Of a DNA stretch of 64,000 bases, positions 12,880 to 14,991 are shown piece after piece. The notes below the pieces were generated by a model. It did no database searches, was not told the origin of the DNA, and worked only from the letters and a program-made list of their open reading frames with translations. Numbering within the stretch: the first letter of the stretch is position 1; each line of letters begins with the position of its first letter. This stretch comes from the human T2T-CHM13v2.0 reference genome, Homo sapiens, in assembly GCF_009914755.1 (NCBI RefSeq), contig NC_060943.1; one strand, 5' to 3'. Both the position numbers and the translations under genes were made by a program.

Positions 12880-14991
12880 CAAAGTAAACAGTTCTATGTG
12901 CCAGGAGAACCCTAAATCTCATATGGTTCTAAGGGCAGAAAGCCACACACGCACCGGCAAAAAGCAAGAGATTCAAGGAAAAGCTGAGCAAAGACAGACA
13001 GGAAAACACACACATGATGAGCCAGCTTGTAGAGCTAGAACTGAGATGGAGAGAGGCACGAGTGGGTAACAGAGTGTGCTCCCCAGAACAGGTGGAGAGA
13101 ATGCCTTTTTCATGCCCTGAGGATAGGCTGGGTAAGGCTTGTGCTCGACAGTCAAGGACTATTTTTTTCCCCAGGCGTCTACAAGAGACCTTCCTTCTCA
13201 GCTCAACTGTGCCCTGCAGTAAGTAATGATGGAGAGAATGTGACTTTGCTCTGCAGCTCTGGAAGCTCATTTGACCTGTGCCTTCTAACGAGGAAGGTAA
13301 GGCCCCTGGACACTGGCTCACTGGGGTGCAGAGACAGAGTGGGGCATTCAGGCCAACTTCTCTCTGGGTCTTGGGGCTGGTGATGGGACCTCTAGATGCT
13401 GCAGCTCTCTGTCGATGGCTCTGCCTGTGAGTGATCAGCCCTAGATGACCACTGTTACTGGGGGTAGCCCATGCCTGCTGCATGCCCTGTGAAACACTAA
13501 ATCATATAGCCACGTCTGAGGGACAGCCTGCTGGAGACATGGGAATCTTAGGGATTCCAGACAAAATGAAGCAATGAGAAACACAAAGAGGAAAAGAGAG
13601 GTTGAGTATGACAGTGGTGTCAGGGTGTAGGGTGGTAGACAGGGCAGCTCCACACTCTCCACTGCTTCCTGTCTGGAGGCCCACTTTGGGGTCCTACTTA
13701 TCCAGGTGAGTGAAGGAAGAGGTCAGGACAAACACAGGAGGTGAAGCCAGATACAGTGTGGGGAGATAAGCAGTGGCCTCAGCCTCTAGCCCTTTTCCAT
13801 CTTCCAGAAGCCCCTCCTGAGCTCTCATCACAGACAGATTTCCCATTTGGAAACCCAGATATTTATCATGCCGGGGGGGGGAGGCAATGTCTCTTGATTA
13901 TGGGGACTTTCCATCACCAGGCACCTGCTAGTCCTCTCTATACCTTCCCTTCAGGAAAGGAATTGTCCCTCATGGGATTCCAGGGAAGAGACCCCAGGAC
14001 CCCTATCAGTCACTAGGGAGATGACAGAGTAGAGGAAGTCAGGGGACCAACCCTCCACAGAGAATGGTCCTACTTCAGTGGGGTGAGGGAAACTCTCACT
14101 CATCCATTTGCTGTCCTGTTACCTCGGAACCCTAAGAGAACTTGTTAGTCACACACAGAATCTACCCCTGAATGTGGTGTGCAAAGTGGGGCTCTTAGCC
14201 TCCAGTGTGAAGTCCCTGGGAAGATGGAATGTCCCTGTGTGAGTGAAGGCTGTGCCACCGCCCAGCTATGTGGCCTTGGGCTAGGCAACCCCTCCCAGGT
14301 CCCCAGTTCCCCATCTGCATCGGAGACTGTGGCCAGTGCGGGAATCCACAAGGCCCTTCAGCCTCCAAAGCTCTGGGACAGAGGCCTCGTCCACAGGGAG
14401 GAAGGGGTCAGAGTGACCTGAGTCCCTACTCAGGAGCGAGTCTAATCCACTCTCCATCGGGGCCTGTGGGGAAGGGAAGATGAAGAAACGGAGCCTGCAC
14501 CTGGCTATGTGGGCGCAGTAGATTAAGGGGAGGATGAGGGTTCCTGAGAGTGTGTCATGTGGCAGAGACCCTGCAGCACACTCAGGAAGGGCTCTGGAAG
14601 GATCCAAGGAAATTTTCCAAGAAGAGGGCAGAGTAAGTGACAGAGACCCTCAACCATGGATTTCACTGAGGTGCCCATGATGACATAGGGAGAACGGGGG
14701 TGTCTGGGCAGGAAGAATATCGTCAGGGTGAAATGAATGGTGATGAGCTTCGTGTCAGAGCTCCTGTGGAGGGAGGGGCCTGGCCCACATGAAAAGGTCT
14801 CTGATCCTACCCCAGCCCCCAGCCCCTGTTCTCCAGGATGACACTGTGGGAATTCCATCAGGAGGGGTGTGATAGGGCTGGTCTTCCTGGCTCGATTCAC
14901 AACACTGGCTGGGGACTGGGAACCCATGGGGAGCCACAGGTGGAAAGGGAGGAGCCTCAGTGAACCCAGCAGGAACAAACATAGGGTCTGA
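12880..14991 (+). pseudogene. fossil LRC receptor fragment: KIR-like D2 exon (13175-~13463), KIR-like stem exon (14126-14176), LILRA/FCAR-type Arg-TM exon (14823-14991)
   Basis: Frameshift-corrected translations [56 protein letters not shown] (51 nt); APVLQDDTVGNSIRRGVIGLVFLA..GDW. Flanking introns resemble KIR introns 4 and 5 in this window. Confidence 0.75.

What the first reader, a model, noticed from the sequence alone, without database searches (positions are those of the whole stretch)
12880..14991. Fossil KIR/LILRA hybrid activating receptor gene between LILRP1 and LILRP2
Seen: three exon relics in the correct order and orientation. (1) After the acceptor ttttttccccag, 13175-~13463 translates, with about 3 frameshifts, as [91 protein letters not shown], a KIR D2-type Ig domain with both cysteines. 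(2) 14126-14176 is exactly 51 nt, GNPKRTC*SHTESTPECG followed by GT, like KIR stem exon 6 ([18 protein letters not shown]). (3) 14823-14991, after cccccag and with one 1-nt deletion, reads APVLQDDTVGNSIRRGVIGLVFLARFTTLAGDW...*, aligning to the LILRP1 TM exon (ASHLQDYAVENLIHMGVAGL), with Arg at 14860-14862 where LILRP2 has Arg. Established: this DYTxxNLIR Arg-TM type (LILRA, FCAR, GP6, OSCAR) pairs with FcR-gamma, whereas human KIR2DS/3DS use a Lys TM with DAP12. Inference: remnant of an ancient KIR-ectodomain, FcR-gamma-coupled receptor. It may relate to the KIR3DX lineage or to Arg-TM activating KIR and novel Ig-like LRC genes that I recall from cattle, goat and pig; that link is unverified. 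I know of no human gene name for it.
Basis: partly seen in the sequence, partly recalled or inferred. Interest (0 to 1): 0.9.

Follow-up and report, generated by a model that had tools for sequence, protein, structure and literature searches.

The report
Dead activating-type KIR3DX gene relic
Between the pseudogenes LILRP1 and LILRP2 lies the decayed back half of a second human KIR3DX-type receptor gene, ending in an arginine-bearing membrane exon of the FCAR kind, which hints at an immune receptor type not described in the papers searched.

Summary
All three exon relics exist, in the stated order on the + strand. The D2 exon, intron 5, the stem exon and the first 290 bp of intron 6 are colinear with KIR3DX1, which lies 154 kb centromeric (about 68-77% identity). 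In the whole genome the stem and its flanks match only KIR3DX1. The relic is therefore KIR3DX lineage, not KIR3DL or LILR. It has no leader, D0 or D1 exon, and it carries frameshifts, stops and lost splice sites.

The last exon is not LILRA-derived. It pairs with an orphan copy between KIR3DP1 and KIR2DL4 (79% identity, open frame). These two group with FCAR and NCR1, apart from the eight LILR-type exons compared.

An exhaustive protein search with the orphan exon found an unnamed predicted protein, P0022. It joins three KIR-type Ig domains to this same membrane exon, so the combination was probably one gene. RefSeq has no row for the relic, and none of the ten papers I read describes it.

Verdict: a real, dead relic of a short-tailed KIR3DX-type receptor, probably FcR-gamma-coupled. 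The relic is of moderate evolutionary interest.

The parts
12576..13174 (+). Relic of KIR3DX-type intron 4. The 5' limit of homology lies here, and no D1 exon lies upstream.
   Evidence: 12801-13062 matches KIR3DX1 intron 4 at 67% over 268 nt (E 2e-21). 12595-12637 matches about 100 bp after the KIR3DX1 D1 exon. K2P is 0.42. Upstream, 11945-12600 shows no likeness to KIR3DX1 D0 or D1, or to KIR3DL3 D1 (z 2.4 or less). 11945-12122 is a dispersed repeat.
13175..13459 (+). D2-type Ig exon relic. The acceptor is intact. It has at least 4 frame-shifting indels and has lost its donor site.
   Evidence: It sits in the KIR D2 clade at 100/99 in the nucleotide tree. AU tests reject a clade with LILR D4 (p 0.004) and with FCAR EC2 (p 0.025), but not with KIR3DX1 D2 (p 0.125). 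In the 60-row protein tree it is basal in the KIR3DX D2 clade at 97/80.
13460..14126 (+). Intron 5 relic, colinear with KIR3DX1 intron 5.
   Evidence: Identity to KIR3DX1 is 76-77%, K2P 0.28-0.30. In the 5' part, fossil to KIR3DX1 K2P is 0.288, against 0.46-0.49 to KIR3DL3 and KIR2DL3.
14127..14176 (+). Stem exon relic, homologue of KIR3DX1 exon 6. The acceptor is AG>CG, there is a 1-nt deletion and an in-frame TAG, and the GT donor is kept.
   Evidence: z 19.5 against KIR3DX1 exon 6; 80% identity.
14177..14468 (+). 5' part of intron 6, homologous to KIR3DX1 intron 6.
   Evidence: 77% identity, K2P 0.27. In the whole genome, 13843-14668 matches only KIR3DX1.
14469..14668 (+). Rest of intron 6, with no human counterpart. 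From 14528 on it is colinear with the unnamed read-through model P0020.
   Evidence: It shows no likeness to KIR3DX1, to the FCAR intron or to the flank of the orphan copy. P0020 residues 58-163 align to 14528-14851 (E 5e-8).
14669..14822 (+). Intron stretch just upstream of the membrane exon, shared with the orphan copy between KIR3DP1 and KIR2DL4.
   Evidence: 83% identity, K2P 0.19.
14823..15052 (+). Terminal exon relic: an Arg-bearing membrane segment (Arg codon 14860-14862), a short tail and the start of the 3' UTR. It is of FCAR/NCR1 type and has two 1-nt deletions.
   Evidence: trees; the tail resembles the FCAR last exon, with a score of 19 that 0 of 300 dinucleotide shuffles reach, and shows no likeness to LILRP1, LILRP2 or NCR1.

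Best explanation
About 2.5 kb (12576-15052, + strand) is the dead 3' half of a second KIR3DX-lineage gene at the LILR/KIR border.

Shown. Part of intron 4, the D2 exon, intron 5, the stem exon and the first 290 bp of intron 6 are colinear with KIR3DX1. The last exon is a different type from KIR3DX1's uncharged KIR-type membrane exon. It belongs to a small clade of Arg-bearing terminal exons nearest to FCAR and NCR1.

Inferred. The parent gene encoded a type I receptor with KIR3DX-type Ig domains, a stem, a membrane segment whose Arg would pair with the FcR-gamma ITAM adaptor (as established for FCAR and the LILRA receptors), and a short tail without ITIMs. It would have been an activating-type counterpart of the inhibitory KIR3DX1. 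It probably split from KIR3DX1 some 70-100 million years ago. It later lost its 5' exons, its reading frames and its splice sites, and it has no function now.
For: - The best non-self match of 13171-13842 in the genome lies at chr19:57630269-57630852 (E 5e-54). That locus is KIR3DX1. [quoted passage not shown]
- Colinear blocks between the relic and KIR3DX1 run from 12801 to 14468.
- 13843-14668 matches only KIR3DX1 in the genome.
- In intron 5, K2P is 0.288 to KIR3DX1 but 0.46-0.49 to KIR3DL genes. KIR3DX1 to KIR3DL is 0.45.
- The stem exon gives z 19.5 against KIR3DX1 exon 6.
- In the 60-row protein tree the D2 relic is basal in the KIR3DX clade, at 97/80.
- The membrane unit 14669-14953 has one close copy, at chr19:57890816-57891099 (79% identity).
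- Nucleotide tree of membrane exons: (fossil, copy) 99/97, then FCAR 92/84, then NCR1 81/84, with the 8 LILR exons apart at 94/97.
- The tail resembles the FCAR last exon; 0 of 300 shuffles reach the score.
- An exhaustive search of 1.84 billion proteins with the orphan-copy peptide gave 4 hits at E<=0.001.
  - One hit, P0019, is a repetitive protein that I set aside.
  - P0022 has three KIR-type Ig domains. Its D1 groups with KIR3DX1 D1 at 99/94. It ends in this same membrane exon type.
  - Part of P0022's D2 is 11 of 13 residues identical to 13293-13331.
  - P0020 is colinear with 14528-14967.
- Protein tree of membrane exons: fossil, orphan copy, P0020, P0021 and P0022 form one clade at 93/91.
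Against: - Exon-only trees are not decisive.
  - The 23-row nucleotide tree puts the relic with KIR3DL D2 at a weak 85/65.
  - The 21-row mixture-model protein tree is unresolved.
  - Exon K2P is about equal to all lineages, at 0.41-0.48.
- For the first 40 residues, the PDB sequence search ranks LILRB1 and LILRB2 (E 3e-12 to 7e-11) above the KIR chains (E 8e-8). No KIR3DX structure exists.
- The tree with the membrane clade held as sister of all LILR exons is only borderline rejected (p-AU 0.047). I named that group after seeing the tree.
- The intron upstream of the FCAR membrane exon is not homologous to the relic.
- P0022 is an unnamed predicted model.
  - It has no signal peptide.
  - About 50 residues between its D2 and its membrane segment match nothing.
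  - It could be a predictor's join of neighbouring exons.
- There is no codon-position bias on the fossil branch (13, 8 and 13 changes at positions 1, 2 and 3). Past constraint is therefore not shown.
- No leader, D0 or D1 relic was found, so a partial copy that was dead on arrival is not excluded.
- I could not examine transcript data or the orthologous interval in other species.
Confidence: 0.68

Rival explanations
1. The two parts were never one gene. A partial KIR3DX1 copy (intron 4 to intron 6) that was dead on arrival happens to lie next to the last exon of an unrelated, long-dead FCAR-like gene.
For: No leader, D0 or D1 relic was found. The stretch 14469-14527 has no counterpart anywhere. 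The orphan copy stands alone without any KIR3DX-like exon. There is no sign of past coding constraint.
Against: The parts have the same strand, the right order and 646 bp spacing. P0020 is colinear from 14528 through the exon, so most of the 'junction' belongs to the membrane unit. P0022 shows the same pairing of KIR-type Ig domains with this exon in another genome.
Confidence: 0.2
2. One reading: a KIR ectodomain joined to a membrane exon taken from a neighbouring LILRA gene.
For: The motif around the Arg is shared with the LILR exons. The tree with the clade held as sister to all LILR exons is only borderline rejected (p-AU 0.047).
Against: Nucleotide identity to the eight LILR-type exons is 49-56%, against 60% to FCAR and 76% to the orphan copy. 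A clade with LILRP1 and LILRP2 is rejected at p 1e-10. The tail resembles FCAR, not LILRP1 or LILRP2. The stem-to-membrane intron is 646 bp, against 133-148 bp in LILRP1 and LILRP2.
Confidence: 0.05
3. [quoted passage not shown]
For: KIR3DX2 lacks membrane and tail exons and is a KIR3DX1 duplicate (PMC8562567, passages).
Against: In gibbon and rhesus, KIR3DX2 lies between LAIR2 and KIR3DX1 (Table S3 of PMC8562567, passages). That is not between LILRA7 and LILRA8. The relic branches below all primate KIR3DX1 and the siamang and unnamed KIR3DX-like D2 domains sampled. It is only about 67% identical to KIR3DX1 in the exon, which is too old for a loss after the gibbon split.
Confidence: 0.03

Closest known systems
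KIR3DX1 (KIR3DL0, LENG12), human chr19 between LAIR2 and LILRA2
   Same: The D2 exon, intron 5, the 51-nt stem exon and the start of intron 6 are homologous and colinear.
   Different: KIR3DX1 has leader, D0 and D1 exons, an uncharged KIR-type membrane exon and two ITIMs (PMC1559706, passages). The relic ends in an Arg-bearing FCAR/NCR1-type exon and lies 154 kb further telomeric.
FCAR (CD89) terminal exon
   Same: It is the nearest named relative of the membrane exon. Nucleotide identity is 60%, the clade support is 92-97 / 84-94, and the tail and start of the 3' UTR are alike. FCAR's Arg-bearing membrane segment is known to pair with FcR-gamma (established knowledge).
   Different: The upstream intron is not homologous. 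FCAR has no stem exon. Its EC2 exon does not group with the relic's Ig exon (p-AU 0.025).
Orphan exon between KIR3DP1 and KIR2DL4 (L010:1501-1791)
   Same: It is 79% identical over 288 nt, including 150 nt of intron.
   Different: It has an open 45-codon frame with an intact acceptor. No KIR3DX-like exon lies upstream, and it is flanked by repeats.
Cattle short-tailed KIR (e.g. KIR3DXS1)
   Same: They are KIR3DX-lineage ectodomains with an Arg, and are predicted to pair with FcR-gamma (PMC4258407, passages).
   Different: Their tail keeps a broken ITIM, and their membrane exon is reported as homologous to that of long-tailed KIR (PMC4258407, section 21). I could not compare sequences, because the figure and the supplement were not readable.
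KIR2DL4
   Same: It is a KIR with an Arg in the membrane segment that signals through FcR-gamma (PMC1193534, passages).
   Different: By recall, it has a KIR-type membrane exon with the Arg at another position and an ITIM tail. I did not compare it here.
Unnamed predicted protein P0022
   Same: It has three KIR-type Ig domains and the same membrane exon type. A 13-residue D2 motif is 11 of 13 identical to the relic.
   Different: It looks intact but is a predicted model of unknown organism. Its D1 and D2 are only 49-52% identical to human KIR3DX1.

Membership tests
KIR, KIR3DX lineage | D2-type Ig exon that groups with KIR D2 exons | tested here: met
   The KIR D2 clade has 100/99 support. Clades with LILR D4 and with FCAR EC2 are rejected.
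KIR, KIR3DX lineage | Closer to KIR3DX1 than to KIR3DL genes | tested here: met
   Intron K2P is 0.288 against 0.46-0.49. About 1.6 kb is colinear with KIR3DX1. The 60-row protein tree gives 97/80. Exon-only trees are ambiguous.
KIR, KIR3DX lineage | 51-nt stem exon homologous to KIR exon 6 | tested here: met
   z 19.5 against KIR3DX1 exon 6. The relic is now 50 nt.
KIR, KIR3DX lineage | Leader, D0 and D1 exons | tested here: not met
   No match was found in 10200-13170.
KIR, KIR3DX lineage | KIR-type membrane exon and ITIM tail exons | tested here: not met
   There is no likeness to the membrane exons of KIR3DX1, KIR3DL3 or KIR2DL3.
LILRA | Membrane exon inside the LILR clade | tested here: not met
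   The LILR clade stands apart at 94/97. A clade with LILRP1 and LILRP2 is rejected at p 1e-10.
LILRA | Ig exons of LILR D1-D4 type | tested here: not met
   (p-AU 0.004).
Arg-bearing terminal exons of FCAR/NCR1 type | Arg at the conserved place near the outer end of the membrane segment, with a short tail in the same exon | tested here: met
   The orphan copy reaches its stop 16 codons after the membrane segment.
Arg-bearing terminal exons of FCAR/NCR1 type | Groups with FCAR and NCR1 | tested here: met
   Support for grouping with FCAR is 97/94 and 92/84. Support for grouping with FCAR plus NCR1 is 81/84 and 87/94. The support is moderate and the alignment is only 125 nt or 41 residues.
Arg-bearing terminal exons of FCAR/NCR1 type | Association with the FcR-gamma adaptor | not testable with these tools
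   This is inferred from the motif alone.
Novel Ig-like receptor family of pig, cattle and goat | Location between NLRP2 and NLRP7, with two Ig domains | tested here: not met
   The relic lies between LILRP1 and LILRP2. The human member of that family is a processed pseudogene outside the LRC (PMC6182393, passages). I did not compare sequences.

The most novel reading that the evidence does not exclude
Placental mammals had, and some may still have, a distinct receptor type: KIR3DX-type Ig domains spliced to an FCAR/NCR1-type Arg-bearing terminal exon. It would be an FcR-gamma-coupled activating partner of the inhibitory KIR3DX1, and it did not arise by mutation of a KIR tail. In the primate ancestor it would have stood at the LILR/KIR border, so that KIR3DX and KIR3DL genes were neighbours, as they are in cattle. 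It would have left two relics in humans. One of them, an open-frame exon downstream of KIR3DP1, could still be spliced.
Probability: 0.4. Interest if true: 0.65.

Novelty: new variant of a known kind. Interest (0 to 1): 0.5.

Why it matters
Current accounts give primates one KIR3DX gene in the middle of the LILR cluster, plus KIR3DX2 beside it in some monkeys and gibbons (PMC7516082 and PMC8562567, passages). They derive activating KIR from inhibitory KIR by changes within KIR-type exons (PMC1559706, passages).

This relic adds a third primate KIR3DX-lineage locus, next to the KIR cluster. It also points to an activating form built with a terminal exon of another origin.

It gives a concrete thing to look for in lemurs, colugos and non-primate mammals, and a testable adaptor prediction. 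In humans it is dead, so there is no direct medical bearing.

Tried and rejected
- Relics of D0, D1 or the leader upstream: none found.
- A copy of the relic downstream of LILRP2. The LILRP1/LILRP2 duplication covers only about 0.8-1.2 kb past their last exons, and there is no second relic.
- An Arg-type exon near KIR3DX1: none found in 30 kb.
- Other Ig relics between KIR3DP1 and KIR2DL4: none found.
- Homology of 14469-14668 to KIR3DX1, to the FCAR intron or to the orphan copy's flank: none found.
- Pfam scans of the short peptides: no Ig hit. The peptides are too short for this.
- Word-indexed protein searches with the orphan-copy peptide and with the first D2 piece: nothing found. The same tool run with the KIR3DX1 D2 exon returned named primate KIR3DX1 proteins.
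- A codon-position test for past constraint: inconclusive.
- A fossil plus P0022 D2 clade: neither shown nor rejected (p-AU 0.39).
- The supplement of PMC4258407 could not be searched.
- Eight literature searches, plus passages of ten papers, gave no description of this relic or of the orphan exon.
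Full report
**Observation**

The three relics are in the sequence as described.

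The Ig exon starts at 13175 behind an intact acceptor. Aligned with the D2 exons of KIR3DX1, KIR3DL3, KIR2DL3 and KIR3DP1, it shows at least four frame-shifting indels. An 11-nt deletion takes away the exon end and the donor site.

The stem relic is followed by GT. By homology it starts at 14127. Its acceptor has changed from AG to CG, it has lost one base, and it carries an in-frame TAG.

The membrane exon starts at 14823. Its Arg codon at 14860-14862 sits at the conserved place, and it has two 1-nt deletions.

LILRP1 has its own stem (9811-9858) and membrane exon (9992-10102), beyond the RefSeq span. The relic is therefore not part of LILRP1.

**The front part is KIR3DX lineage**

Within the window, only the D2 exons of KIR3DL3 and KIR2DL3, with about 350 bp of their intron 5, resemble the relic.

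In the whole genome the best match of 13171-13842 is chr19:57630269-57630852 (E 5e-54, 69% identity). That locus has D0, D1 and D2 exons and lies 187 kb centromeric of KIR3DL3. It carries a 7-nt gap at the end of the D2 exon. [quoted passage not shown]

The relic is colinear with KIR3DX1 across these blocks (x = chr19 position minus 57618000):

| Relic | KIR3DX1 | Region | Identity |
|---|---|---|---|
| 12801-13062 | x11543-11802 | intron 4 | 67% |
| 13231-13678 | x12269-12728 | D2 and intron 5 | 70% |
| 13711-14072 | x12724-13063 | intron 5 | 72% |
| 14059-14468 | x13250-13661 | end of intron 5, stem, intron 6 | 75% |

An Alu in KIR3DX1 accounts for the one gap. The stretch 13843-14668 matches nothing else in the genome.

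The stem relic scores 28 against KIR3DX1 exon 6, while the best of 200 shuffles scores 11. It shows no likeness to the LILR stems.

Kimura distances in the 5' part of intron 5 are 0.288 from fossil to KIR3DX1, 0.46-0.49 from fossil to KIR3DL, and 0.45 from KIR3DX1 to KIR3DL. The other intron blocks give 0.27-0.30, and intron 4 gives 0.42.

**Exon trees agree on KIR D2 but are weaker on the sub-lineage**

- In a nucleotide tree of 23 Ig exons the relic is in the KIR D2 clade at 100/99, but joins the KIR3DL D2 exons at a weak 85/65.
- AU tests reject a clade with LILR D4 (p 0.004) and with FCAR EC2 (p 0.025). They do not reject a clade with KIR3DX1 D2 (p 0.125).
- A 60-row protein tree that includes primate KIR3DX1 proteins puts the relic at the base of the KIR3DX D2 clade, at 97/80.
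- A 21-row tree under a mixture model is unresolved.
- Exon distances are about equal to all lineages, at 0.41-0.48.
- The PDB sequence search ranks LILRB1 and LILRB2 above the KIR chains for the first 40 residues.

I rest the lineage call on the introns and the stem exon.

**Extent of the relic**

Homology to KIR3DX1 starts at about 12576-12595, which corresponds to about 100 bp after the end of D1. Upstream there is no likeness to D0 or D1 (z 2.4 or less). The stretch 11945-12122 is a dispersed repeat. The relic is therefore truncated at its 5' end.

**The last exon**

KIR3DX1's own membrane exon (x17892-17978) is uncharged and KIR-like, and is unrelated to the relic's.

The stretch 14669-14953 has a single close copy, at chr19:57890816-57891099 (79% identity, E 2e-57). 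That copy lies 6.2 kb after the D2 exon of KIR3DP1 and before KIR2DL4. It has an intact acceptor and an open 45-codon frame that ends 16 codons after the membrane segment. It is flanked by repeats, and no other Ig relic lies nearby.

Nucleotide identity of the relic's exon to other exons is as follows:

| Compared exon | Identity |
|---|---|
| Orphan copy | 76% |
| FCAR | 60% |
| Eight LILR-type exons | 49-56% |
| OSCAR | 46% |
| TARM1-like exon | 40% |

The nucleotide tree gives (fossil, copy) 99/97, then FCAR 92/84, then NCR1 81/84, with the LILR clade apart at 94/97. A clade with the neighbours LILRP1 and LILRP2 is rejected at p 1e-10. A clade with all LILR exons is only borderline rejected at p 0.047.

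Past the membrane segment, the relic resembles the FCAR tail and the start of its 3' UTR. The score is 19 and 0 of 300 dinucleotide shuffles reach it. It shows no likeness to LILRP1, LILRP2 or NCR1.

The intron before the FCAR exon is not homologous to the relic.

**Were the two parts one gene?**

An exhaustive HMMER search of 1.84 billion representative proteins with the orphan-copy peptide gave 4 hits at E<=0.001.

- P0019 is a repetitive protein, which I set aside.
- P0022 (374 aa) has three Ig domains by Pfam.
  - Its best human matches are the D0, D1 and D2 exons of KIR3DX1, at 39%, 52% and 49%.
  - Its D1 groups with KIR3DX1 D1 at 99/94.
  - It ends in a membrane exon of the relic's type, 55% identical to the orphan copy over 44 residues.
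  - A 13-residue stretch of its D2 is 11 of 13 identical to the translation of 13293-13331.
- P0020 (294 aa) is a read-through model. It is colinear with 14528-14967, and so covers most of the stretch that has no human counterpart.
- P0021 holds the exon alone.

In a protein tree, fossil, orphan copy, P0020, P0021 and P0022 form one clade at 93/91, next to FCAR and NCR1 at 87/94.

The same pairing of KIR-type Ig domains with this exon therefore occurs in another genome. This makes a single ancestral gene the better reading.

Two cautions apply. P0022 is an unnamed prediction without a signal peptide, and it has about 50 unmatched residues before the membrane segment.

**Age (inference)**

I take 135 million years for the KIR3DX/KIR3DL split (PMC4258407, passages) and assume a clock on the intron distances. 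The relic and KIR3DX1 would then have parted about 85 million years ago (0.288/0.45). The two membrane units would have parted about 70 million years ago (0.225/0.45). These figures are rough.

**Comparison with what is known**

- KIR3DX2 of gibbon and rhesus lies between LAIR2 and KIR3DX1 (Table S3 of PMC8562567, passages). In chimpanzee, nothing is listed between LILRA7 and LILRA8 (same table). The relic is therefore a third primate KIR3DX-lineage locus.
- Reviews state that the lineage is a single copy in primates (PMC7516082, passages).
- The mouse lemur has a fragmented KIR3DX1P (PMC2757895, passages). It could be an orthologue, but I could not test this.
- Cattle short-tailed KIR keep a broken ITIM, and their membrane exon is reported as homologous to that of long-tailed KIR (PMC4258407). 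They are a different solution.
- The pig 'novel Ig-like' family is elsewhere in the LRC (PMC6182393).
- Passages of PMC6775213, PMC13756075, PMC1193534 and PMC10206138 do not mention the relic.

Eight searches found no description of the relic. Subscription papers and GENCODE were out of reach.

**Verdict**

It is a dead relic with no present function that I can show. Its interest is evolutionary and moderate.

Noticed in passing
L010:1501-1791 (chr19:57890816-57891099; window place about 106816-107099, outside the window): This is an orphan Arg-bearing terminal exon between KIR3DP1 and KIR2DL4. It has an intact acceptor and an open 45-codon frame, and it is 79% identical to the relic's membrane unit. 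An open frame of this length could survive by chance, so I make no claim of function.
   Followed up: partly
window 9811-9858 and 9992-10102: LILRP1 has stem and membrane exons beyond the RefSeq span 5817..7720. Its membrane exon has His where the other LILR-type exons have Arg.
   Followed up: partly
L024 (chr19:57376444-57376554, minus strand): One LILR-type membrane exon of the centromeric cluster also has His in place of the Arg. I did not identify the gene.
   Followed up: no
window 10105-10885 and 22152-23292: The tandem LILRP1/LILRP2 duplication extends only about 0.8-1.2 kb past their last exons, at 65-72% identity. The relic lies outside the duplicated block.
   Followed up: yes
window 15103-16740: Four Alu-like repeats lie in a row just after the relic.
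   Followed up: no
L011+L012, b3590-3602 (KIR3DP1): KIR3DP1's close likeness to KIR2DL3 stops about 12 bp after its D2 exon. A weak KIR-like intron stretch follows 340-490 bp later.
   Followed up: partly
P0017 (named by its source as KIR2DS2 of Symphalangus syndactylus): This protein has KIR3DX-like D1 and D2 domains and a stem, but no membrane segment. It lies on the same contig as that species' KIR3DX1. It may be the siamang KIR3DX2, and the source name looks wrong.
   Followed up: no
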